Source: Patescibacteria group bacterium
Lineage (GTDB): Bacteria > Patescibacteriota > Kazan-3B-28
Direction of reading: 5' to 3'
Length of the DNA stretch: 64,000 bases
Assembly (NCBI GenBank): GCA_041649135.1
Contig: JBAZNQ010000001.1
Span: forward strand, 291,037 to 355,036
Within the stretch, counting starts at the first letter, position 1. Each line of letters opens with the position of its first letter. Shown here one piece after another: positions 29,166 to 63,345 of this stretch. Both the position numbers and the translations under genes were made by a program. The notes beneath the pieces were generated by a model. The model was not told where the DNA came from and made no database searches. It saw only the letters and a list, made by a program, of their open reading frames with translations.

Positions 29166-29711
29166 TCACACTGTTTTAATCTCGGTTTCTTTTTGCTTCA
29201 ATAGATCATCAATTTGAGCAACTACGGCATCAATTTTTTCTTGCACTTGTTTCTCTAATCTGGCCTGCTCATCTTCACCAATTAATTTTTCTTTTACCTG
29301 TCCGGCAATCTTGTCCATCACATCCCGTCGTAGATTCCGTACTGACACCTTCGCATTTTCTGCCTTGCCGGAAGCGATCTTCGCTAGTTCACTCCGTCGT
29401 TCTTCTGACAATGGCGGAACATTAATTCTCACCATTGTTCCGTCATTCATGGGATTCAAACCTAAATCAGATTCTTGGATCGCCTTTTCGATCCCCGCCA
29501 AACTGCTCTTGTCCCACGGCTGAATAGCAATTGAACGCGCATCCGGTATCATCACGCTAGCGATTTGCTTAATTGTCATCTTGCTGCCATAGACATCCAC
29601 CGACAGATTTTCTACTAGTCCAGCGCTTGCCCGACCAGTTCGAACACTATTCAGATCCTCCCGAAATATTTCCAGACTTTGATCTAATTTATTTTTTAGT
29701 TCCTCTAACAT
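29166..29711 (-). CDS. frr: ribosome recycling factor
   Basis: A 181-aa protein with a typical RRF sequence throughout. Confidence 0.9.
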   Translation of the reverse strand: MLEELKNKLDQSLEIFREDLNSVRTGRASAGLVENLSVDVYGSKMTIKQIASVMIPDARSIAIQPWDKSSLAGIEKAIQESDLGLNPMNDGTMVRINVPPLSEERRSELAKIASGKAENAKVSVRNLRRDVMDKIAGQVKEKLIGEDEQARLEKQVQEKIDAVVAQIDDLLKQKETEIKTV

Positions 29712-29810
29712 AGTCTTTTTGCTCTTCTTTATAGATCCTCCATAGTTCTGCTGCCCAGCAGAACGAAGGAGGACTACCTTAACTTTTCACTTTTAACTTT
29801 TAACTTTTCA

Positions 29811-30341
29811 CTATCCTACACTGCCCAGCTCCATCCGCACAAACCGACCGATCTTAATGTTTTCCTTAAAGAAAGCAATTTGCTCATTCAGCAAATCTTC
29901 TACCGTCTTGCTGGAATCTTTGACGAACGACTGATTTAACAACACCGCTTCTTTCAAATAGGTCTGTTTATCATCTTGAGCTGATAGTTCATCTGCTGGC
30001 ACATCTGCCTCCAAAACATATTTCGGGTTCATACCGGCAATATGTACCGCTAAATCTCTGGCAAACGCCACAAACCTTTCATCTCTTGCCACAAAATCGG
30101 TTTCCACCATCACTTCTACCAATACCCCAATTTTGCTGCCAGCATGAATATAAGACGCCACCACTCCATTGGCGGCTACCCTCTCGGCTTTCTTGGCGGC
30201 AATCGAAGCCCCACGCGCTTTTAAGATCTCTACCGCTTTATCATAGTCTCCACTAGCCTCCACCAACGCCTGCTTCGCCTCCATCATGCCGGAACCAGTT
30301 AAGTCTCTTAATTGTTTAACTAAATCAGCTTTAATTTCCAT
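29811..30341 (-). CDS. tsf: elongation factor Ts (short form)
   Basis: LVKQLRDLTGSGMMEAKQAL and an N-terminal UBA-like region. The rpsB-tsf-frr-uppS order is conserved. Confidence 0.8.
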   Translation of the reverse strand: MEIKADLVKQLRDLTGSGMMEAKQALVEASGDYDKAVEILKARGASIAAKKAERVAANGVVASYIHAGSKIGVLVEVMVETDFVARDERFVAFARDLAVHIAGMNPKYVLEADVPADELSAQDDKQTYLKEAVLLNQSFVKDSSKTVEDLLNEQIAFFKENIKIGRFVRMELGSVG

Positions 30342-31110
30342 TTGTCCCCTCCTCTACTTTAACTGCTAGTTCTTCTTCCCCGCCAGCCTTTTCACTATCG
30401 TCTGTTGGCTGATCGCCGGTGGCTAGCGGCCGATCGCTCACCATACAAGCTTCCGCCACTAATTCAGCCACATAACTAATCGCTTTTTTCGCATCATCAT
30501 TAGACGGGATCGGATAATCAATCAAGCTAGGATCAGAATTAGTATCCACCATTGCGATTACCGGCAGCTTCAGTTTTTTTGCCTCCCGTACCGCAATGGC
30601 ATCCTGTAATGTACTCACTACAAAGATTGCCGCTGGCAAATTGCGCATTTCTCTCAAACCGCCCAAGCTGAACTGCAAAGTCTTGTAAACTTTGTCCAAT
30701 TCTGCCCGTTCTTTTTTGGTCATGTCATCAAAATTATTTTTGGCAAAGCGGTCATCAATTTCCCGCATATATTTCAATCGCTTCTTCAGCGTATCGAAAT
30801 TGGTTAATAGCCCGCCCATCCACCGCTCGTCAACGTATGGCATCCCACAAGCTTCTGCCGCCTGCTTAATAATCGGACCAGCTTGTTTCTTTGTCCCAAC
30901 AAAAATAATCTGCTTACCCTCTGTCGCCAGCTCATGCGCAAATTCCAGCGCCGATGTCAGTAGTGGCAAAGTTTTTGTCAGATCAATTAAATGAATGCCA
31001 TCTCTGGCCTCAAAAATATACGAATCCATCTTCGGGTTACGCCGAAAAGTCTGATGCCCAAAGTGCATCCCCGCTTCCATCATCGCTTCGATCGAAATCT
31101 TCTGCTTCAT
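30331..31110 (-). CDS. rpsB: 30S ribosomal protein S2
   Basis: MMEAGMHFGHQTFRRNPKM... The start was moved to the ATG at 31108-31110. Confidence 0.9.
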   Translation of the reverse strand: MKQKISIEAMMEAGMHFGHQTFRRNPKMDSYIFEARDGIHLIDLTKTLPLLTSALEFAHELATEGKQIIFVGTKKQAGPIIKQAAEACGMPYVDERWMGGLLTNFDTLKKRLKYMREIDDRFAKNNFDDMTKKERAELDKVYKTLQFSLGGLREMRNLPAAIFVVSTLQDAIAVREAKKLKLPVIAMVDTNSDPSLIDYPIPSNDDAKKAISYVAELVAEACMVSDRPLATGDQPTDDSEKAGGEEELAVKVEEGTNGN

Positions 31111-31300
31111 ACCTAATTCTCCTTTTATTCCTCCCCGCGCCATTTTAATGTCTCGTCTTGAGCTGATTAGCTAGTGATCAGCAGGAGCAGACGATTTTTA
31201 CTCGCACCTAAACTGGCAAGAGTAAAAACGGCGGGGTGTGTTGATATACAGTCGGCATCTTAACCGACTCCGGACCATAAGTCAACACCGTCCACATCAT

Positions 31301-32431
31301 TTATAACCCCCTAATCTGGTCTTGTAAGCGGTGGCTATTGACGTGAGTCAGATACCCCAGATACGACTGATACCTATTTTCAAGATTGTCATCCTCTCTA
31401 TCAATAGATCTTTGGAGATTCTTGAACATCCGCTTCACCGTCTTTTTTCTAGGCAAACTATAGTGTGGTAACGCCACATACCCGACATAATCTATACCCC
31501 AATTGAGCTTTCTCAAGGAAATCTTGTCTGGATGAAGAATGAGCTTGAGACGAGTTTTAAGGAACTGGTTTACCTCAACTAGATAACCCATCAGCTCGTC
31601 TGGGTTATTAGCCAAGAAAACGAAATCATCGGCATACCGCAAATAATGTTCGGCTTTCAATCGATGCTTCACGAACTTGTCCAATGGGTCCATATAGATA
31701 TTAGCGAATAGTTGAGAAGTTAAGTTGCCCAGCGGCATTCCTTTGCCATGAGAGTGTTCAAAGCTGTGGATAATATTCTCTAACAAACTAAATAGCTTCT
31801 CGTCGGTGATTCTTTCCCGGAGCAAACCGATCAGAATATCATGGTCGATGCTATCGAAAAACTTGCGAATATCGCACTTGAGAGCGAAGCACGGTCGGAT
31901 GCAATTTTTACTAATTGAACGAGTCATCTGACATAGCCGAGCGAATGCTTTATGTGTCCCTTTCTCATTCCGACAAGAATAGCTGTCAAAACTAAAACTC
32001 ATATCCCATTTAGGATACAAGACCCGATAGATAGCCCTGTGTAACAACCTATCCCTAACAGCCGCCTTACTGATTGTTCTTATTTTAGGATCAACGATCT
32101 GAAATTGACGGTATCTGGTATGCTTATATGTTCCACTCGTCAGATCTCGTTGTAACTGAAATAGGTTATTTTCTAATGTATATTCAAATATTCGCAGGTC
32201 TGTCTTGTTTCGCTTGCCTTTTCGAAACTCATGCCAAGCTGCCAACAGGTTGTCGATGCGGATAACTTCATCAAAAACTCTCTCATGGAAAAAAATTCTT
32301 TTAACGCCCCCCCCCGCACGGATTTGACGAAATCCTGATTGTTTCTCGGTTGTACGGATTTTACAAAGCTTTGCATGATGCTTTGCTGAAATTCCCGAAG
32401 GTTGAACGATATAGTTTGGGACAAACTGCAC
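31301..32431 (-). CDS. diversity-generating retroelement reverse transcriptase (5' end uncertain)
   Basis: Motif 0 is IDNLLAAWHEF. The DGR-type RT4 motif is LGNLTSQ (SQ in place of the group-II intron SP). The YADDFVF catalytic box is present. The first ~55 codons overlap antisense avd, are low-complexity, and contain C9 (32308-32316) and A7 homopolymer runs. Confidence 0.8.
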   Translation of the reverse strand: MQFVPNYIVQPSGISAKHHAKLCKIRTTEKQSGFRQIRAGGGVKRIFFHERVFDEVIRIDNLLAAWHEFRKGKRNKTDLRIFEYTLENNLFQLQRDLTSGTYKHTRYRQFQIVDPKIRTISKAAVRDRLLHRAIYRVLYPKWDMSFSFDSYSCRNEKGTHKAFARLCQMTRSISKNCIRPCFALKCDIRKFFDSIDHDILIGLLRERITDEKLFSLLENIIHSFEHSHGKGMPLGNLTSQLFANIYMDPLDKFVKHRLKAEHYLRYADDFVFLANNPDELMGYLVEVNQFLKTRLKLILHPDKISLRKLNWGIDYVGYVALPHYSLPRKKTVKRMFKNLQRSIDREDDNLENRYQSYLGYLTHVNSHRLQDQIRGL

Positions 32432-32667
32432 AGAATGCCACTCTCGGATTGATCGAATTGTTGATTTCCGCTAGTAAAACAAGTCAACCACAACGAAAAT
32501 CCGACTGTTTGACATTAGCCAACACAAAACTAGAAATGATCAAACTGTTCTTGCGCTTGTCCAAAGACGTGAACGCGCTAACAGATAGAAGATATCTTGA
32601 GCTCCAATCCATCCTCCAAGAGGTCGGCAAAATGCTCGGAGGATGGATCAGATCTGTTAAGCGGTAG
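32350..32667 (+). CDS. avd: DGR accessory variability determinant (Avd, four-helix bundle), on the strand opposite to RT/TR/VR
   Basis: The C-terminus QSILQEVGKMLGGWIRSVKR closely resembles Bordetella phage bAvd (...EVGRILGSWIARVNRK). An FPKVERYSLGQ motif is present. Likely TTG start. The stop lies 12 nt before the TR. Confidence 0.65.
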   Translation: MYGFYKALHDALLKFPKVERYSLGQTAQNATLGLIELLISASKTSQPQRKSDCLTLANTKLEMIKLFLRLSKDVNALTDRRYLELQSILQEVGKMLGGWIRSVKR

Positions 32668-32679
32668 CAGAGGGTACTA

Positions 32680-32795
32680 CCGGGCAACGGCGCCATAGTT
32701 CCAATTGCGATTCGAGCGGTTGTCGTAGTTGACGTTCAGACCATCGTCAGTATTGAATTCGACATTCAGCGAGTTGTCAGCGTCGTGCGATATAG
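32680..32795 (-). repeat. DGR template repeat (TR)
   Basis: A 110-bp alignment with 33116-33225. All 18 mismatches are at minus-strand adenines of this copy (AAC/AAT codons). This copy does not lie in the target ORF. Confidence 0.8.
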
Positions 32796-33022
32796 CCCCT
32801 GTCTCATCCGTGTCACCGCCGAGGATATAGTATCTATCGGCTGTATTTTATTTGCGTCTTGTATAAACGCGTCGAAGACGGAGCAAGAAGTTCTCTCTGC
32901 TAGTTAGCTCTCCCAACCGCTCAAATTAAACGGTTGGCTCTGGCTGTCCAGATGAGAGGAAACGATGAACAGAGACAGAGCGTCTCTGCTGCACTACCAT
33001 TTCATCAATATTATACAAAAAT

Positions 33023-33048
33023 GCCCTGCTTCCCGTGAGAAGCAGGGC
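33023..33048 (-). promoter_or_regulatory. GC-rich 10-bp-stem hairpin downstream of the VR (candidate DGR homing-assisting cruciform)
   Basis: gccctgcttc-ccgtga-gaagcagggc, about 67 nt 3' of the VR on the coding strand. Confidence 0.45.
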
Positions 33049-33091
33049 AGGCCCAAGGGCCAAATCACAAATTGATAAAAGGTCCAGGGGT

Positions 33092-33868
33092 TCAAGGCAC
33101 GAGGGGCTTGAACTTCCGGGCAACGGCGCCATAGCCCCAATAGCGATCCGAGCGGTCGCCGTAGCCGACGCGCAGACCACCGTCAGTACTGAATCCGACA
33201 CTCAGCGAGTCGGCAGCGCCGCGCGCATACGAGTTGCGACACCTGATCCAGCCACCCATAAAGAGGACCCGACCGAAGGCCATAAAGTGACGGATCATCA
33301 GGTAAAGGGCTTCCTCCGCTGATGTTAGACCATCGCCGCCTTGCTCGATCGCCCACGTATTATGTTCGTCGGCGTTGAGGTTGAAGGGCCGATGTTCTGC
33401 ATCCGTCGAGTTCATGATCGCCGAGAGGTCGCACTCGATCGTGCCCGCTTCGGTGACCAGCTCTTCGCCATCGCAGTTCGGTGACGAATTAATCTTCATC
33501 CCAATCTTACGCGCCAGCCCGATGAGATGGGTGCGGTTCAGCCCACCCGGAATAAAGTAGTGATTTATGCCAGAGTCGCCTCGCAGAGCGCGGCGCACTT
33601 CATCCGGTATGCCACCATCTTCTTCGGCGAGCCCGAGCCGGATTAAGGCCTGGGCTTCGCGCTCGAGCCACTCCTGCGGGGTAATCTCGTTAACCACCAA
33701 CTTACCGGTCATAGCGAGCCACACTTGGTGACGGTAGACCGGGTCGTCGATGATCCGCTGGAAACAGCGGAGGACAGTTTCGAGGTTATCGCCAGATAGT
33801 GTCACTAGACGCTTGACGGCCTCCCCGAGGATAAACAGCGAATTCATGATGAAGTTCACGGATGACAT
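33092..33868 (-). CDS. DGR target protein with a C-terminal variable region (CLec/FGE-like tail)
   Basis: The VR encodes ...GGWIRCRNSYARGAADSLSVGFSTDGGLRVGYGDRSDRYWGYGAVARKF-COOH. GC-rich. Confidence 0.7.
   Translation of the reverse strand: MSSVNFIMNSLFILGEAVKRLVTLSGDNLETVLRCFQRIIDDPVYRHQVWLAMTGKLVVNEITPQEWLEREAQALIRLGLAEEDGGIPDEVRRALRGDSGINHYFIPGGLNRTHLIGLARKIGMKINSSPNCDGEELVTEAGTIECDLSAIMNSTDAEHRPFNLNADEHNTWAIEQGGDGLTSAEEALYLMIRHFMAFGRVLFMGGWIRCRNSYARGAADSLSVGFSTDGGLRVGYGDRSDRYWGYGAVARKFKPLVP
33116..33231 (-). repeat. DGR variable repeat (VR) at the 3' end of the target gene
   Basis: TR AAC becomes GGC/GAC/CGC and TR AAT becomes TAT/GAT/AGT. The shared GC-rich 3' end (ctatggcgccgttgcccgg) is a candidate initiation-of-mutagenic-homing (IMH) site. 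Confidence 0.8.
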
Positions 33869-34034
33869 ATCCGTACACCTCGCTCATTGTAAAGTTGCTG
33901 GTGGGTGTCGTCAACTAGGGTTAACGCCTGAAAATCACAGGTCCACCATACACCGCCAAGATAACAGAAAAAACCACCTGAAGTCAAGTGATTTTCTACT
34001 CTGGAAGCAACTTTTTCTACATACCCAAGACCCC

Positions 34035-37000
34035 CTAATTATCCAAACCCGACTGATCAGATTGTTGGGGTTGGTTAGACCCGCCTCCCCATTGGTCAGA
34101 TTGTCGAGATTGATTAGATTGGTGCAGATTGGTTAGATTGTCTGGCAATTCTCCCCACAACCCAACCCCAGGTTCTACTAGCGGCCGGTTTTCCGAAGTC
34201 ATCGGTATAGCTTGCATCGGATTGACTGGCCAGACTGCCTGCCCACTTTGGTTATTGGTCATTGGATATTGGATATTATCCCGCCGGCGGCGGGATCCAA
34301 ACCACTTTCCCATCGCATCAAACCAAACATACAGGATCGGAGTGGTCACAAATGACAAGAAACCAGACACGATAATCCCAAAGACAATGACCGTCGCCAA
34401 CCCTCTCCAGAATGGCGAGAATAGTGCCAACGGCATTAATCCGGCAAAGATAGTCATCTTAGTTAGCAAGATCGGTTTAAACCGAACTGTGATCGAAGTG
34501 GCAATTGCCTCTTGTGCGCTCATCCCCTTCGCTCGCATTTGATTCGCAAAATCAATGATCAGAATTGTAACGTTTACTACGATCCCCGCCATCGCTACCA
34601 CCCCCAATAATTCCAAGAAGCCTAATTGACCAGTCGCAATTGCTACGGCTGGGAATACTCCAATAAAACCTAATGGCACAGCAAATAAAATAATTATTGG
34701 CGACAAGATTGATCTAAAGAAGCCAACCAGAATTATGTAAATCAGGAATAAGGCAATAATTAACGCAATGAACAGCTGGCCGAATGATTCCGTTATTGCC
34801 CCCGCTACCCCTTCCGTTTCCGTTGCGCTTTCGGCATCCAGCCCTAAAGCGTCTAATTTATCATCATCCAAATATTTGGTTAGCTCCGACTGTACCTTTA
34901 ATGGGTCAGTCTCACTATCTACTTTTGCTCTGATCGTCACATATCGTTTGCCATCCAATCTTTCAATGCTCTGCGCTGCTTGTGCTTCAGTTCCGGTAAT
35001 TAAATTATCAACCGTTGGGACACTAATTACTCCGGTCATGGTACTACCGACCGCAGTTGATACCGGCAATTGTTTAATTTCATCCAGACTATCGATCGTC
35101 TTATCCATCTTGGTGATGACCTTATACACCTCGTCATCTAGTTTCAGATTTATCACCTCCGTCTCGTCTAGCTGATTCTTAACCACATTCGCCAAAGCTA
35201 ACGGATTCAAGTTCATTAAATTATTAGTGTCCAAGACTAATGCCGTTCCGCTACTCTTGTCATCAACCTTCAATGAGTTTTCTGTTTTGGTCACACCATC
35301 TTGAGTTTTCAAAAATTCCTCCACATCATTGGCTGCTTTTTGTAGTTTGTCTAAATCTTGATCAAACAACCGGATGCTCACCGGATACGCCTCCTGTGGT
35401 GGAGCTGATTCGTCCATCGTCGCTACTACTTCTGCGCCCTGTAACCCACCAAAGTAATCATTCGCATCCTCCACTAATTTAGCGGCCGTTCTTAAATCTT
35501 CGTCCTGACGTTCTACCATTGGGAACAGTTCCGCCACCATCACGAAGGAATTCCCCGTCTGTTCATAAACCGCAAATTTACTTACTTCTTTCTGCTTTGA
35601 CAAATACTGCTGGACCGGGTCAATAACTTTTATCGCTTTATCAAATGCCCACCGGTCGCTCAACGTACCAGTTATCATCACCATGTCGGCATCGCCAGTC
35701 GAAGCAAACTGCACAACCTTAACTTGCTCTGTGGCGATAAATGCTCCCCCAATTGCTATTGGCGCAATAATTGCCGCCAGAATGATCAAGCCTCTCGCTA
35801 CTTGTTTGCCAACCCCATTCCCCAACAAATTGGTTACTAATCGCCCAATCCATTTTGAGACTGCCCAAACCCCAACCAATTCCGACTTACCATCTGCCTG
35901 CGATTGAACTTTTTTGCTTGGCTTCAACCAATTAGCGCCAACCGGCAAGAAAAATAAAGTCGGTACGATAAAGGACGACACCACTGCCGGAATAACTGTC
36001 TGGGGAATATATTGGATGATTTGTCCAAAAAATCCCGACACCACTCCGAATGGAATAAATACCACAAAATTAGCGATAGCTGACAAGAGCACCCCCAATC
36101 CTACTGCGTTAAAAGTTTTGATTGCCGCCTCTTTACCGGAATAGCCTTGTTCCCGATATCGTTGCATCGCCTCCAAAAACACGATCGTCGGGTCAACTAC
36201 CAGCCCGACCACCAAGATCATTGAAAACAATACGATCGTATTAATTGAAATCCCCGCTAGCTTCAAATAAGCAGTCGTCATCCCGAGCGCTAACGGGATC
36301 GATAATCCAGCCAAGACTGCTACTCGCCAGTTCACAAAGATCAGCAAGAACAGCACCACCAAAGTAATCCCGCCGAACAGATAACCGATCACCCCCAACG
36401 ATCCTAATGCCTCTATATTGCCGCCGATAATACTCTTCTTGATCTCCGATAATTGATCACCAGTATATTTGGCTACGTCATACACTTTGATGATCCTGAC
36501 ATTGCCAGACAATCGCGAATCGTCTTCCAGTTCCGCATATTTATCGTCCAACCGTTCGCCTAAAGCTAACACGTCTTCGTTGGTCTCTGCCATTACCCAA
36601 AGCACAACCGCTCGGTCAATCCGCATCCCGCCCGCATCTTCGATTGCTTCATCACCATCATTCTCTCTGGAACCAACTCGATTGTAGTAATCGTTGTTAT
36701 TAATCGTCTGTTTAATCGTCGCAATATCTTTCAATCTGACATTTGGGCCGATCAACATATTCTCTAACTCACTTATTTCGGTCAGCGGCCGTTTGACGCT
36801 TAGAGAGTACTTATCTTGTTGTTCATCATAAAAAGATCCCAACGGCATCTCAAATTGAGCCGCTTTCAGTAGCGCCTCAACCTGTGTCCGCTGGATTCCC
36901 ATTTGGGAGAGCTTCGCACTATCAAACGTAATTTCGATCTCTGGCGTTAACGGATTGCTGATCTTAACTTCTTTTACCCCCTTAACTGTCTCCAGCTCAT

Positions 37001-37505
37001 CAACGATAATTTTTGCTTTTTCATACAATTCCCAATCCGCTCCACTATTTGAGTTATCCAAAGTTACCGCCAACATGACTGTCGGGCCCATCACATCAAT
37101 TTCTTTTGCTTTTGGTTTATCAACGCCTTCTGGCAATTCCACACCGGCTAACTTCCCTTCCAAGTCCTGCATCGCACTTGTCATCTCGGTCTTGTCATCA
37201 AATGTCACCGTCATTACCGCAAATGAATCGTTGGCTGCTGCCGTATACTCATCTACCGATTTAACTTCGGCAATTGCCCGCTCAATCGGTTTGACGATCT
37301 TGTCTTCCACTTGCAAGGCCGATGCTCCCGGATACGTTGCCGTGATCACCGCCATATTCAAATTCATACTGGGGAAACCCTGTGGCTGGAAGAAATAAAA
37401 CGATACCGAACCAGCGATCACCACAAATACAAACAACAAAGCCACGATCTGCCCGTTGTTGAAAATCAGATTTATGAATTTTCGCCCAAAACTTCTATCG
37501 CCCAT
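34035..37505 (-). CDS. RND-superfamily exporter (AcrB/MMPL-like, 12 TM) with a Q/N-rich C-terminal tail
   Basis: Two large periplasmic loops and TM bundles typical of the RND family. Start placed at MGDRSFGRKF (ATG at 37503-37505). A PMTNNQ repeat lies near the C-terminus. Confidence 0.7.
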   Translation of the reverse strand: MGDRSFGRKFINLIFNNGQIVALLFVFVVIAGSVSFYFFQPQGFPSMNLNMAVITATYPGASALQVEDKIVKPIERAIAEVKSVDEYTAAANDSFAVMTVTFDDKTEMTSAMQDLEGKLAGVELPEGVDKPKAKEIDVMGPTVMLAVTLDNSNSGADWELYEKAKIIVDELETVKGVKEVKISNPLTPEIEITFDSAKLSQMGIQRTQVEALLKAAQFEMPLGSFYDEQQDKYSLSVKRPLTEISELENMLIGPNVRLKDIATIKQTINNNDYYNRVGSRENDGDEAIEDAGGMRIDRAVVLWVMAETNEDVLALGERLDDKYAELEDDSRLSGNVRIIKVYDVAKYTGDQLSEIKKSIIGGNIEALGSLGVIGYLFGGITLVVLFLLIFVNWRVAVLAGLSIPLALGMTTAYLKLAGISINTIVLFSMILVVGLVVDPTIVFLEAMQRYREQGYSGKEAAIKTFNAVGLGVLLSAIANFVVFIPFGVVSGFFGQIIQYIPQTVIPAVVSSFIVPTLFFLPVGANWLKPSKKVQSQADGKSELVGVWAVSKWIGRLVTNLLGNGVGKQVARGLIILAAIIAPIAIGGAFIATEQVKVVQFASTGDADMVMITGTLSDRWAFDKAIKVIDPVQQYLSKQKEVSKFAVYEQTGNSFVMVAELFPMVERQDEDLRTAAKLVEDANDYFGGLQGAEVVATMDESAPPQEAYPVSIRLFDQDLDKLQKAANDVEEFLKTQDGVTKTENSLKVDDKSSGTALVLDTNNLMNLNPLALANVVKNQLDETEVINLKLDDEVYKVITKMDKTIDSLDEIKQLPVSTAVGSTMTGVISVPTVDNLITGTEAQAAQSIERLDGKRYVTIRAKVDSETDPLKVQSELTKYLDDDKLDALGLDAESATETEGVAGAITESFGQLFIALIIALFLIYIILVGFFRSILSPIIILFAVPLGFIGVFPAVAIATGQLGFLELLGVVAMAGIVVNVTILIIDFANQMRAKGMSAQEAIATSITVRFKPILLTKMTIFAGLMPLALFSPFWRGLATVIVFGIIVSGFLSFVTTPILYVWFDAMGKWFGSRRRRDNIQYPMTNNQSGQAVWPVNPMQAIPMTSENRPLVEPGVGLWGELPDNLTNLHQSNQSRQSDQWGGGSNQPQQSDQSGLDN

Positions 37506-37901
37506 CGAATTTGTCCCGTTAGAGTCAGTATGCTCGGCTACCAAGCCGCTTAACCACCCACAAGACCATTCTCCCCCGAGAACCATGCCCCATTAGGAGT
37601 AAAAACTCCAACGGGATACTCTCGTTAGAGTACCCAAAAACTCGCCTCCAGTCAAGGAAAGCCCAACCGCTTGGTTATTGGTTATTGGATACCGTAGGTC
37701 CTTCCGTAGCTTTAGCGGAGAAAGAGGGAGAATTGGATATTACGGCACAGTCGCCTTTAAAAACCCAACTGCCTTGGTGATCGGATATTGATTATTGAAT
37801 ATTACGGCAAAGGTCCATGCTTCGCTCTTCAAGCTTCGCAGGACAGTCTTCGCTTTTTATAGTTGGCAAAACCAGGCGTAGCTACTAAAGATAGCGAAGA
37901 C

Positions 37902-58440: not shown

Positions 58441-58625
58441 CCGCCATTGGAGCTTGAGCGTCCTGAATCAGTAAAATCCCTCCAATCAGCGTGCCCATGT
58501 TTGAGGAGCGTAGCGACGAGTTTGGTGATAAGCAGATGGGGAGGATTTTACTAGATTCAGAGTCGAAAGCGACTGGCGGAAACTTTTGTGTTACTTTTCT
58601 AGAAAAGTAACCATCGATGAAGCGG
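58441..58625. ncRNA. conserved ~185-nt structured element, copy 2
   Basis: Nucleotide-level conservation with the copies at 51531 and 63166. No conserved reading frame. A partial tandem duplicate of its 5' 30 nt lies immediately upstream (58405-58440). Confidence 0.4.
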
Positions 58626-63156: not shown

Positions 63157-63165
63157 TTCCCATCC

Positions 63166-63345
63166 GCCATTGGAGCTTGAGCGTCCTGAATCAATAAAAT
63201 CCCTCCAATCAGCGTGCCCGCTGTTTGACGACCGTAGGGAGGAGTTCGGTGATAAGCAGATGGAGAGGATTTTGTTAGATTCAGAGCGAAAGCGACTGGC
63301 GGAAACTTTTGTGTTACTTTTCTAGAAAAGTAACCGCCACCTTCA
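63166..63345. ncRNA. conserved ~185-nt structured element, copy 3
   Basis: Relative to copy 1 it carries a compensatory pair change in the long helix (cagtaaaat/attttactag becomes caataaaat/attttgttag). Confidence 0.4.

What the first reader, a model, noticed from the sequence alone, without database searches (positions are those of the whole stretch)
31301..33868. Complete diversity-generating retroelement (DGR): SQ-motif RT, Avd, TR/VR pair with strictly adenine-specific differences, and a target gene
What the sequence shows directly:
- Two about 110-bp near-identical copies at 32680-32789 and 33116-33225 (in minus-strand sense).
- They differ at 18 positions. At every one, the 32.7-kb copy has A (in AAC/AAT/GAC/GAA codons) where the 33.1-kb copy has G, T or C.
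- The 33.1-kb copy forms the last about 38 codons of ORF 33092-33868. The other copy is non-coding.
- They share a GC-rich 3' end (ctatggcgccgttgcccgg), a plausible initiation-of-mutagenic-homing (IMH) site.
- A 10-bp GC hairpin (33023-33048) lies just downstream of the VR.
- The adjacent minus-strand ORF is an RT with motif 0 (IDNLLAAW), LGNLTSQ in motif 4 (the DGR hallmark, against group-II QGxxSP) and YADDFVF.
- A 105-aa four-helix-bundle ORF has a C-terminus nearly superimposable on phage BPP-1 bAvd.

A-to-N mutagenic retrohoming with these components is the established DGR mechanism. The target C-terminus (GGWIRCRNSYARGA...GFSTDGG...YWGYGA) looks like the FGE/CLec-type variable scaffold common in DGR targets of CPR/DPANN genomes.
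Basis: partly seen in the sequence, partly recalled or inferred. Interest (0 to 1): 0.8.

Follow-up and report, generated by a model that had tools for sequence, protein, structure and literature searches.

The report
Complete diversity-generating retroelement in a Patescibacteria genome
This is a real, complete diversity-generating retroelement of the type already known to be common in ultra-small (CPR/Patescibacteria) bacteria; it also carries a conserved folded RNA ahead of its template and a length-variable run of G's at the start of its reverse transcriptase gene.

Summary
Two ungapped 110-bp copies (TR 32789..32680, VR 33225..33116, minus strand) differ at 18 positions. All 18 are adenines in the non-coding copy (p = 1.7e-13), at codon positions 1 or 2 of the target ORF.

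Corrections:
- avd is on the opposite strand, giving target-VR / TR / (avd) / RT. This is architecture B3, reported for 90% of CPR DGRs.
- The RT start is unresolved.

Hence an ordinary new member of a known kind.

Two features were missed:
- A ~220-nt structured leader RNA lies directly 5' of TR (31 of 41 pairs covary). One strand pairs with both TR flanks, the geometry of the phage spacer RNA but placed upstream.
- A G9 tract sits at the avd-RT junction. All 11 related loci have a simple repeat there, and its length differs between near-identical RTs. In this window it puts the nearest upstream start codons out of frame.

Current activity is unproven.

The parts
33886..33914 (-). Promoter-like site upstream of the target gene (TTGACG-17-TACAAT)
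   Evidence: Consensus scan, 10 of 12 matches. This stretch is 98% identical to relative L001. Function is inferred.
33092..33868 (-). Target gene, 258 aa: N-terminal helical part plus a C-terminal C-type-lectin/FGE-like domain that carries the VR
33116..33225 (-). Variable repeat (VR), codons 215-251 of the target
   Evidence: 110-bp ungapped match to the TR with 18 mismatches, all at TR adenines.
33116..33130 (-). GC-rich element GGCGCCGTTGCCCGG at the 3' end of the VR (IMH-like). The VR-specific flank AAGTTCAAGCCCC follows.
   Evidence: Identical in TR and VR; divergence starts directly after it. The IMH role is inferred from the BPP-1 model (PMC5758913).
33022..33049 (-). 12-bp GC-rich hairpin with a 4-nt loop, followed by T5. 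Terminator of the target gene and/or the DGR hairpin downstream of the VR.
   Evidence: Fold z = -4.6; terminator scan. A 9-13 bp hairpin lies 33-87 nt after the VR in most relatives, several without a T run.
33010..33015 (-). TATAAT (-10-like) box right after the hairpin. Possible promoter of the leader-TR RNA.
   Evidence: Conserved in position in the window, L003, L018, L019, L012 and L009. No -35 match. Function is inferred.
32790..33008 (-). Conserved structured leader RNA immediately 5' of the TR (helices H1-H9; motifs ACTTCTTGC, AAATAAAATACAGCC, GGCGGTG, GGAT)
   Evidence: Alignments A5 and A6 of 6-7 loci. 41 consensus pairs, 31 with compensatory changes. 90.8% of cells are paired against 40-47% in slid controls; 0 of 500 shuffles reach the observed values. 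The single-sequence MFE fold (-75.7 kcal/mol, z = -3.9) has the same helices. No Rfam match at E <= 1. A composite motif occurs only in the DGR loci among 147 held sequences.
32886..32903 (-). Leader strand CTAGCAGAGAGAACTTCT (core ACTTCT 32891..32886) that pairs with the 3' boundary of the TR. Candidate primer-side strand.
   Evidence: RNAalifold long-range pairs show ACTTCT/GGAAGT changing to ACTCCT/GGGAGT. Own-locus duplexes are -9.8 to -26.4 kcal/mol, better than shuffled flanks in 10 of 10 loci (fraction <= own 0.000-0.030). The cross matrix shows subfamily blocks.
32877..32884 (-). Helix 6, 5' strand GCTCCGTC, one nucleotide after the strand above. It pairs with 32803..32795 (GACAGGGGC), 5 nt upstream of the TR.
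   Evidence: Covarying helix in A6. The sequences differ completely but stay complementary in L143-L146 (GCGAGATAT/ATATCTCGC and others; read).
32680..32789 (-). Template repeat (TR), non-coding, 29 adenines
   Evidence: Read in the VR frame it translates as an N/D-rich peptide and ends in TAG.
32664..32682 (-). TR 3' boundary and flank CGGTAGTACCCTCTGCTAC (IMH*-like). It pairs with leader 32903..32886 and overlaps the avd stop codon.
   Evidence: 14 bp with three 1x1 mismatches, -15.1 kcal/mol, against a shuffled mean of -8.6. The prediction that C32682 is the first templated base rests on analogy with BPP-1 TR G117 (bioRxiv 10.1101/2023.10.23.563531).
32350..32667 (+). avd accessory gene, on the strand opposite to RT, TR and VR. 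The ORF is listed from TTG 32350, but the coding region probably extends upstream to about 32332.
   Evidence: Pfam bAvd PF22296 1.7e-18. NCBIfam NF033474 77.2 bits, cutoff 80. PDB bAvd 4dwl E = 3e-4. Inverted avd in all 10 relatives. The N-terminal extension is inferred from synonymous changes on the avd strand.
32307..32315 (-). G9 homopolymer (C9 on the + strand) at the avd-RT junction. Candidate expression switch.
   Evidence: It is the only homopolymer of 8 or more in 64 kb. A simple repeat sits at the same place in 11 of 11 loci: G7-G11, (GT)8 or (CT)10. Its length differs between near-identical RTs. G9 is identical in three assemblies of this locus.
31301..32431 (-). Reverse transcriptase gene. 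The conserved body runs from about 32306 to 31301. The only in-frame canonical start is GTG 32431; ATG 32376 and GTG 32319 are out of frame with G9.
   Evidence: Pfam RVT_1 1e-25. Best PDB hit is bRT 8ub7_A at 160.6 bits. 7803 homologues at E <= 1e-10; every named one in the list is CPR/Patescibacteria or unclassified. LGNLTSQ and YADD are invariant. Frame analysis.

Best explanation
This is a chromosomal diversity-generating retroelement of the CPR/Patescibacteria clade. Its gene order is target-VR / leader-TR / (avd, inverted) / RT, which is architecture B3.

Proposed mechanism. An RNA containing the ~220-nt structured leader and the 110-nt TR is bound by the RT-Avd complex. The TR is reverse-transcribed with random misincorporation opposite its 29 adenines. 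The cDNA replaces the VR, directed by the GC-rich IMH-like element at the VR 3' end. This rewrites up to 18 codons (those containing TR adenines) on the ligand-binding face of the C-type-lectin-fold domain of a 258-aa protein of unknown partner.

Shown here:
- the adenine-only TR/VR differences;
- the DGR-clade RT, Avd, and the predicted lectin fold of the target;
- the same architecture and the same mutation signature in nine relatives;
- the covarying leader RNA.

Inferred:
- A leader strand (32903..32877) clamps both ends of the TR: one duplex with the TR 3' boundary and an adjacent helix with the 5' flank. It would thereby play the role of the phage BPP-1 spacer RNA (template:primer duplex plus stop duplex), but from upstream of the TR. 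cDNA synthesis would then start near C32682 and stop near 32795.
- The G9 tract at the avd-RT junction may modulate RT expression.
For: TR/VR: 110 bp, 18 of 18 mismatches at TR adenines, p = 1.7e-13, 28 of 29 adenines at codon positions 1-2.

RT: bRT 8ub7_A E = 5.7e-46 against GsI-IIC group II RT 7.6e-18. GNLTSQ and YADD are invariant.

Avd.

Relatives: L003, L017-L020 and L143-L146 all have target / TR / (avd) / RT, with 9-22 A-specific differences each and at most 4 other differences. Pooled with the window: 91 A>G, 54 A>T, 16 A>C.

Architecture: B3 = TR-(avd)-RT is reported for 90% of CPR DGRs (PMC5758913).

Leader RNA.

Long-range duplex with compensatory changes.

Topology match: BPP-1 Sp53-56:TR118-121 next to Sp59-70:avd369-379 (bioRxiv 10.1101/2023.10.23.563531).

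In L143, L144 and L146 the TR is followed within ~10-15 nt by a hairpin plus a T run. That leaves no room for a downstream spacer.
Against: There is no direct evidence of ongoing diversification. Three assemblies of this locus are identical over 2.8 kb, VR included. A degenerate VR pattern found nothing in the metagenome collection.

With G9, the RT body is in frame only with GTG 32431, which overlaps avd in antisense. The start codons nearest the tract are out of frame, so the RT may not be made.

The leader:TR duplex in this window has three mismatches and ranks only 4th among the ten flanks tested for its leader. Its extended form competes with leader helix H2. The priming role is by analogy only.

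Handa et al. report stem-loops downstream of the TR in CPR DGRs too, so a conventional downstream priming site is not excluded.
Confidence: 0.9

Rival explanations
1. The element is a genuine DGR but is currently silent or decaying. The VR records past mutagenesis, but with G9 the RT is frameshifted relative to its natural start, so no diversification occurs in this population.
For: ATG 32376 and GTG 32319 are in frame +2 relative to the RT body. A near-identical RT in another species cluster is fused in frame to the upstream start when the tract is one G shorter (P0258 against L020). Three assemblies have an identical VR. Relics exist in the family: L015 keeps a leader-like RNA but no TR, avd or RT, and L001 has lost the VR-TR interval.
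Against: The RT body ORF is intact over 376 codons with all catalytic motifs. The TR has zero non-A differences from the VR, which argues for recent homing. An in-frame GTG exists at 32431. The conserved 'upstream peptide' is the antisense of the avd N-terminus, so it does not prove where the RT starts. Relative L001, at 77% RT identity, has the same G9 geometry, which is odd for a random inactivation.
Confidence: 0.3
2. The leader is not part of the reverse-transcription machinery. It is a 3' UTR of the target gene, or a 5' regulatory element or sRNA, that merely sits between the target gene and the TR. Priming occurs downstream of the TR as in phage BPP-1.
For: [quoted passage not shown] A 21-nt-arm inverted repeat lies 25 nt after the TR here, at 32655..32600. 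The long-range duplex rests on 10 loci from about four subfamilies.
Against: The leader ends 5 nt before the TR in every locus. Its most conserved single-stranded motif is complementary to the TR 3' boundary and covaries with it. The downstream inverted repeat is absent in L003, L018 and L017, and no consensus structure is found downstream of the TR. In L143, L144 and L146 a hairpin plus a T run follows the TR. The downstream region is avd coding sequence in antisense.
Confidence: 0.3
3. The two repeats are an ordinary duplication or gene-conversion tract, and the RT belongs to a group II intron or a retron.
For: The NCBIfam best hit is the group II intron RT model, at 142 bits. Source annotations call the protein 'retron-type' or 'maturase family'.
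Against: That score is far below the model's cutoff of 300. The DGR RT of phage BPP-1 scores 160.6 bits against 68 for the best group II RT. No Rfam group II intron or retron RNA is found. 18 of 18 mismatches fall at adenines (p = 1.7e-13). Avd is adjacent.
Confidence: 0.01

Closest known systems
CPR-type DGRs, architecture B3, TR-(avd)-RT (Wu et al. 2018, PMC5758913; Paul et al. 2017, cited there)
   Same: The order and orientation match: target-VR, TR, inverted avd, RT. The host is Patescibacteria. The RT belongs to the large CPR cluster (7803 homologues). The target has no recognisable sequence domain. Adenines sit at codon positions 1-2.
   Different: Nothing architectural. The target family (about 108 clusters at 50% identity) is not named in any library searched. 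The leader RNA and the junction repeat are shared with the ten relatives fetched here. I did not find either described in the papers I could read. Paul et al. 2017 could not be read.
Bordetella phage BPP-1 DGR (mtd-VR, avd, TR, spacer, brt)
   Different: Here avd is inverted and lies after the TR. [quoted passage not shown] The strand that clamps the TR ends lies 5' of the TR, not 3', which amounts to a circular permutation of the RNA if the analogy holds. There is no match to Rfam, in which I assume the BPP-1 RT-10 motif is held. The element is chromosomal and not in a phage. The target is a small protein without a phage-tail context.
Treponema denticola TvpA and FGE-type C-type-lectin-fold variable proteins
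   Different: No sequence similarity: Pfam FGE-sulfatase is not hit even at E = 0.1, and a PDB profile search finds nothing. Foldseek gives only one weak hit (8oks, E = 0.06). The N-terminal ~95-residue helical part matches nothing.
Retron msr-msd RNA
   Same: The structured, protein-binding and priming part of the RNA lies upstream of the templated part, and helices bring the template's 3' end to it. This is the connectivity proposed for the leader-TR RNA.
   Different: The RT is not retron-type (58 bits to the retron St85 model against a cutoff of 235). There is no msDNA evidence. The template is a protein-coding-derived repeat with a cognate VR.
Simple-sequence contingency loci (poly-G tracts of Campylobacter and Neisseria; the repeat in the divergent hifA/hifB promoter of Haemophilus). 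Comparison from general knowledge.
   Same: A homopolymer or dinucleotide repeat lies at the 5' end of a gene or between divergent genes. Its length differs between close relatives, and the different lengths put the upstream start in or out of frame.
   Different: No within-population length variation is shown for this locus: G9 in three assemblies. Homopolymer assembly error cannot be excluded for the other contigs. The true RT and avd start codons are unknown.

Membership tests
Diversity-generating retroelement (DGR) | TR/VR repeat pair whose differences are confined to adenines of the TR | tested here: met
   110 bp, 18 of 18 mismatches at TR A, no indels, p = 1.7e-13.
Diversity-generating retroelement (DGR) | RT of the DGR clade, with the motif 4 [I/L/V]GxxxSQ signature | tested here: met
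   LGNLTSQ is invariant in 22 relatives. The best solved relative is the BPP-1 bRT at 160.6 bits, against 68 for the best group II RT. No DGR-RT-specific HMM was available. The NCBIfam group II model scores 142 against a cutoff of 300.
Diversity-generating retroelement (DGR) | VR inside a protein-coding target, at its 3' end, with TR adenines at codon positions 1 and 2 | tested here: met
   The VR covers codons 215-251 of 258. 28 of 29 TR adenines lie at positions 1-2.
Diversity-generating retroelement (DGR) | IMH at the VR 3' end, with a differing IMH* at the TR 3' end | tested here: inconclusive
   A shared 15-nt GC-rich element is followed by divergent flanks, as expected. Function cannot be tested from sequence.
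Diversity-generating retroelement (DGR) | Accessory protein (Avd) | tested here: met
   Pfam bAvd 67.5 bits against a cutoff of 40. NCBIfam DivGenRetAVD 77.2 bits, just under its cutoff of 80.
Diversity-generating retroelement (DGR) | Ongoing diversification: VR heterogeneity in a population, restricted to TR-adenine positions | not testable with these tools
   No reads were available. Three assemblies are identical, and the protein cluster has a single member. The degenerate VR scan of metagenome contigs found nothing, not even this contig.
Diversity-generating retroelement (DGR) | Intact, expressible RT gene | tested here: inconclusive
   The body is intact, but with G9 the start codons next to the tract are out of frame. 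Only GTG 32431 is in frame.
Architecture B3 of Wu et al. 2018 (CPR DGRs) | Core order TR, avd on the reverse strand, RT; no other accessory gene | tested here: met
   TR 32789..32680 (-), avd 32350..32667 (+), RT 32431..31301 (-). Definition taken from PMC5758913.
C-type-lectin-fold DGR variable proteins | CLec/FGE-like fold with the VR forming its C-terminal strands | tested here: met
BPP-1-type DGR RNA (spacer 3' of the TR; Rfam RT-10 motif) | [quoted passage not shown] | tested here: not met
   The TR is followed after 12 nt by the avd stop codon on the other strand. No conserved structure lies downstream of the TR. There is no Rfam hit. A structured RNA lies upstream instead.

The most novel reading that the evidence does not exclude
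In the B3-type DGRs that dominate CPR bacteria, the DGR RNA is a circular permutation of the phage BPP-1 RNA. The protein-binding scaffold, the strand that forms the template:primer duplex with the TR 3' boundary, and the adjacent stop duplex with the TR 5' flank all lie in a ~220-nt leader upstream of the TR. This is a retron-like connectivity. Separately, expression of the RT, and perhaps of avd, is gated by a length-polymorphic simple repeat at the divergent avd-RT junction. The hypermutator itself would then be a phase-variable contingency locus, and in this window (G9) it would sit in the out-of-frame state.
Probability: 0.35. Interest if true: 0.7.

Novelty: new member of a known kind. 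Interest (0 to 1): 0.45.

Why it matters
As a DGR, this locus adds one more example to a class known since 2017 to abound in CPR genomes. It changes nothing by itself.

Two things could matter to specialists.

First, the mechanism of cDNA priming has been worked out only for one phage element, whose spacer RNA lies after the template. Most DGRs in CPR genomes have the inverted-avd layout with no room for such a spacer. The covarying leader found here gives a concrete, testable model of where their priming and stop elements are. It predicts the first templated base (C32682), the stop site (near 32795) and the pairing strand (32903..32877).

Second, a simple repeat sits at the avd-RT junction in all eleven loci examined, and near-identical RTs differ in its length. 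This suggests that these genomes can switch their mutator on and off, which would bear on how the cost of hypermutation is controlled.

The target family (258 aa, lectin fold, no sequence relatives outside Patescibacteria) remains of unknown function.

Tried and rejected
1. I scanned the metagenome contig collection with a TR-derived pattern (A replaced by N) to find VR variants. It gave 0 hits, not even this contig, so it is uninformative.

2. I scanned viral contigs with the 15-mer CAYATAAAATACAGC. All 120+ hits were at chance level. A stricter three-block pattern gave 9 hits, about the number I estimated for chance. None had RT, Avd or a target nearby, and L151 is a phage intergenic region. 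This gives no evidence that the leader occurs in viral contigs.

3. The inverted repeat 32655..32600 just downstream of the TR was tested as a candidate Avd-binding stem-loop. It is kept in L001, L019 and L020, with one compensatory change, but it is absent in L003, L018 and L017. No consensus structure was found there. I did not adopt it.

4. I considered the 'conserved N-terminal peptide' of the RT (..VQPRNNQDF..) as proof that the RT starts at ATG 32376. I rejected this. The peptide is the codon-aligned antisense of the avd N-terminal extension (..EILIVSRLY..), and the substitutions are synonymous on the avd strand.

5. A homopolymer assembly error as the explanation of G9 is not supported for this locus, since three assemblies agree. 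It is not excluded if they share reads.

6. I tested whether a second paralogue in the MAG of L003 (L007) is a remote target of that TR. It is not: there are many non-A differences.

7. Sequence searches for the target's function found nothing: Pfam, NCBIfam and a PDB profile. Foldseek against the PDB gave one weak hit. The afdb50 library was unavailable.

8. The A>G excess (15 of 18) is at the high end, but the clade as a whole is G-rich (91 G, 54 T, 16 C pooled). I do not treat it as special.

9. Paul et al. 2017 could not be read. Whether it mentions the leader is therefore unknown.


Full report
**Context.** The window comes from a Patescibacteria (CPR) metagenome-assembled genome. The target protein is identical to NCBI 'MAG: hypothetical protein WC553_01665 [Patescibacteria group bacterium]', on contigs of up to 521 kb. 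The element lies between rpsB-tsf-frr-uppS (31143..28389, minus strand) and a 1183-aa RND/MMPL-type transporter (37586..34035).

**Observation.** Read on the minus strand at a fixed offset of 436 nt, 32789..32680 and 33225..33116 align without gaps over 110 bp.
- There are 18 mismatches. In every one the 32.7-kb copy has A: 15 A>G, 2 A>C, 1 A>T. That copy has 29 A's, so the chance that 18 mismatches all hit A is 1.7e-13.
- The 33.1-kb copy is codons 215-251 of ORF 33868..33092. Of the template adenines, 28 of 29 sit at codon positions 1 or 2, in AAC, AAT, GAC and GAA codons.
- Both copies end in GGCGCCGTTGCCCGG. The next base differs (T in the TR, A in the VR) and the flanks then diverge, which is the IMH/IMH* pattern.
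- An A-tolerant scan finds no further VR in the window.
- A 12-bp hairpin with a 4-nt loop at 33049..33022 is followed by T5 and scores as an intrinsic terminator.
- A comparable GC-rich hairpin lies 33-87 nt after the VR in most relatives, several without a T run. It may serve as the DGR hairpin, as a terminator, or as both.

**Proteins: RT.** The RT ORF hits RVT_1 (1e-25). Its best solved relative is the Bordetella phage DGR RT in complex with Avd (8ub7_A, 160.6 bits, E = 5.7e-46). The best group II intron RT scores 68 bits, and retron, Drt and Cas-RT proteins score lower. G-N-L-T-S-Q and Y-A-D-D are invariant in an alignment of 22 relatives. There are 7803 homologues at E <= 1e-10, and every named one in the list shown is from Patescibacteria, Kazan, Berkelbacteria, Saccharimonadales or unclassified bacteria.

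**Proteins: Avd.** The 105-aa ORF 32350..32667 matches Pfam bAvd (1.7e-18) and the NCBIfam DGR Avd model (77.2 bits against a cutoff of 80). It is on the plus strand, opposite to everything else.

**Proteins: target.** The target has no Pfam, NCBIfam or PDB sequence match.
- It belongs to a small family: 28 close homologues and 108 representatives at 50% identity among 1.84 billion proteins.
- Its last ~40 residues are hypervariable while the rest is conserved.
- An AlphaFold model built on this alignment is confident (pLDDT 89.5).

**Architecture and relatives.** The order is target-VR, TR, inverted avd, RT. Wu et al. (PMC5758913) call this architecture B3, TR-(avd)-RT. [quoted passage not shown]
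- Ten related loci were fetched (L001, L003, L017-L020, L143-L146; RT identity 59-77%). All have this order.
- Nine of them have a TR/VR pair with 9-22 adenine-specific differences and at most four others.
- The exception, L001/L002, lacks exactly the 436-bp VR-to-TR interval. Its target gene runs straight into a TR-like copy, either by recombination or by assembly collapse.

The locus is thus a typical, apparently intact member of a known class.

**A structured leader RNA.** The 230 nt between the hairpin and the TR are not anonymous spacer.
- They are conserved across loci whose proteins are only ~60% identical, and they begin with a TATAAT box (33015..33010) placed right after the hairpin.
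- RNAalifold on seven loci predicts 41 pairs in nine helices, 31 of them with compensatory double changes.
- 90.8% of cells are paired, against 40-47% when the 3' partners are slid by 1-3 columns. None of 500 column shuffles reaches the observed values.
- The window sequence alone folds into the same helices (-75.7 kcal/mol, z = -3.9).
- Rfam 15 has no match at E <= 1.
- A composite of its conserved motifs occurs only in the DGR loci among 147 sequences held.
- The more distant loci L143-L146 keep the motifs and the closing helix with entirely different but complementary sequences.

**How the leader may work.** This part is inferred. In the single-sequence fold the motif AACUUCUU is unpaired.
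- Folding leader, TR and flank together pairs ACUUCU (32891..32886) with GGUAGU (32681..32676) at the TR 3' boundary. In L017 and L020 both sides have changed, to ACUCCU and GGGAGU.
- The duplex can extend to 9-20 bp with further compensatory changes between subfamilies.
- For each of ten loci, the leader segment binds its own TR flank better than shuffled flanks (fraction of shuffles at least as good 0.000-0.030). A 10x10 cross matrix shows subfamily blocks, with an own-locus mean of -17.0 and a cross mean of -11.0 kcal/mol.
- One nucleotide further 3' on the same strand, GCUCCGUC (32884..32877) forms helix 6 with GACAGGGGC (32803..32795), which ends 5 nt before the TR.
- One strand therefore holds both ends of the TR in two adjacent helices. 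This is the geometry that Handa et al. solved for phage BPP-1, where Sp53-56 pairs with TR118-121 (template:primer) and Sp59-70 pairs with the segment upstream of the TR ('cPRT stop') (bioRxiv 10.1101/2023.10.23.563531). There, however, the strand lies downstream of the TR.
- Here the TR is followed after 12 nt by the avd stop codon. In L143, L144 and L146 it is followed by a hairpin plus a T run, so there is no room for a downstream spacer.
- The simplest reading is a circularly permuted DGR RNA. It predicts initiation near C32682 and termination near 32795.

Caveats:
- The window's own duplex has three mismatches and ranks only 4th among the ten flanks tested for its leader.
- Its extended form competes with helix H2.
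- Handa et al. report downstream stem-loops for CPR elements too.
- I could not read Paul et al. 2017.

**The RT start and the G tract.** Upstream of motif 0, the RT frame has no ATG, GTG or TTG until GTG 32431. That start overlaps avd by 82 nt in antisense, and it is the one both NCBI and JGI annotate.
- A G9 run (32315..32307) lies 49 nt before motif 0. It is the only homopolymer of 8 or more in the 64-kb window.
- Every one of the 11 DGR loci has a simple repeat at this spot: G7 to G11 in nine, (GT)8 in L143 and (CT)10 in L144. These account for 11 of the 13 such repeats in 104 kb of related sequence.
- The glycine codons in the tract are always GGG, which points to a constraint at the nucleotide level.
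- Start codons directly 5' of the tract (GTG here, ATG in L001, TTG in L020) are one base out of frame. In L017 and L019 they are in frame.
- Within 90%-identity RT clusters, the part upstream of the tract is joined to the same body in different frames. P0258 (361 aa, 'MLNNRDLLKKLRGGGVKR...') is inferred to carry G10. P0050 (337 aa) comes from L020, which has G11. P0111 and P0289 read the same upstream DNA in two frames.
- Tract length is therefore polymorphic between assemblies, as in contingency loci. Homopolymer errors remain possible for those contigs.
- For this locus, three assemblies agree on G9 and on the VR.
- The apparently conserved upstream 'RT peptide' is the antisense of the avd N-terminal extension and evolves as avd coding sequence. 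It therefore does not settle where the RT starts.
- Whether the RT is made from GTG 32431, by slippage, or not at all is open.

**Verdict.** The finding is correct and its interpretation is supported. As a DGR it is an ordinary new member of the CPR B3 class, so its novelty is low. The leader RNA model and the junction repeat apply to the whole subclass rather than to this locus. They are the only parts that might interest a specialist, and they rest on 10-11 loci and on analogy. They raise the score moderately.

Noticed in passing
window 32307-32315; L001 7106, L003 1939, L017 3059, L018 3061-3074, L019 3065, L020 2962, L143 2465, L144 2457, L145 2526, L146 1844: A simple-sequence repeat sits at the divergent avd-RT junction of all 11 DGR loci: G7-G11, (GT)8 or (CT)10. 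Its length differs between near-identical RTs, and roughly half of the loci have the adjacent upstream start out of frame. It may be a phase-variation switch of the mutator.
   Followed up: partly
L001 6001-6760 and L002 (same locus in another assembly): The closest relative (RT 77% identical) lacks exactly the 436-bp VR-to-TR interval. The target ORF ends in a TR-like, N-rich copy (..NVNYDNHSNRNWHYGAVAR*) that abuts avd. This is either VR/TR recombination that killed the element or an assembly collapse of the repeat.
   Followed up: partly
window 32300-32750 against L001: The TR plus avd DNA is 82-94% identical between the window and L001, and Avd protein is 95% identical. RT and target are only about 70% (DNA) and 77% / 68% (protein) identical. 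Either the segment is doubly constrained (avd coding plus antisense and TR RNA) or it was exchanged recently.
   Followed up: no
L005, L006, L007, L011, L014, L015: Several members of the target family have no RT or avd within the 1.4-3.5 kb of sequence available downstream. L007 is a second paralogue in the same MAG as L003 and is not a current target of that TR. L015 keeps a degenerate leader-like RNA (1672-1900) but no TR, avd or RT, so it looks like a decayed element.
   Followed up: partly
window 32600-32655 (minus strand 32655..32600): An inverted repeat with 21-nt arms lies inside the avd 3' coding region, 25 nt after the TR. It is kept in L001, L019 and L020 with one compensatory change, but it is absent in L003, L018 and L017.
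   Followed up: partly
L003 2976-3926: A tyrosine recombinase (phage integrase family) gene lies directly downstream of the RT in relative L003. The DGR cassettes sit in unrelated genomic contexts in each relative, which suggests that the cassette moves.
   Followed up: no
window 58441-58496 and 63164-63219: Two direct copies of a 56-nt sequence with one mismatch lie 4.7 kb apart. They are unrelated to the DGR.
   Followed up: no
window 34035-34200: The C-terminal tail of the 1183-aa RND/MMPL-type transporter next to the DGR is a low-complexity Q/S/N-rich stretch encoded by imperfect 39-nt repeats (34048-34118).
   Followed up: no
whole window: There is strong strand asymmetry of base composition on the plus strand: C 28.2% against G 17.5%, and T 28.4% against A 25.9%. 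In the stretches examined, the long, identifiable genes are on the minus strand.
   Followed up: no
L008, L009, L010, L012, L013: Contigs that carry target homologues often end within 0-400 nt after the VR. This is the assembly breakage expected at a hypervariable or repeated VR/TR, and it is indirect support for VR heterogeneity in those populations.
   Followed up: no
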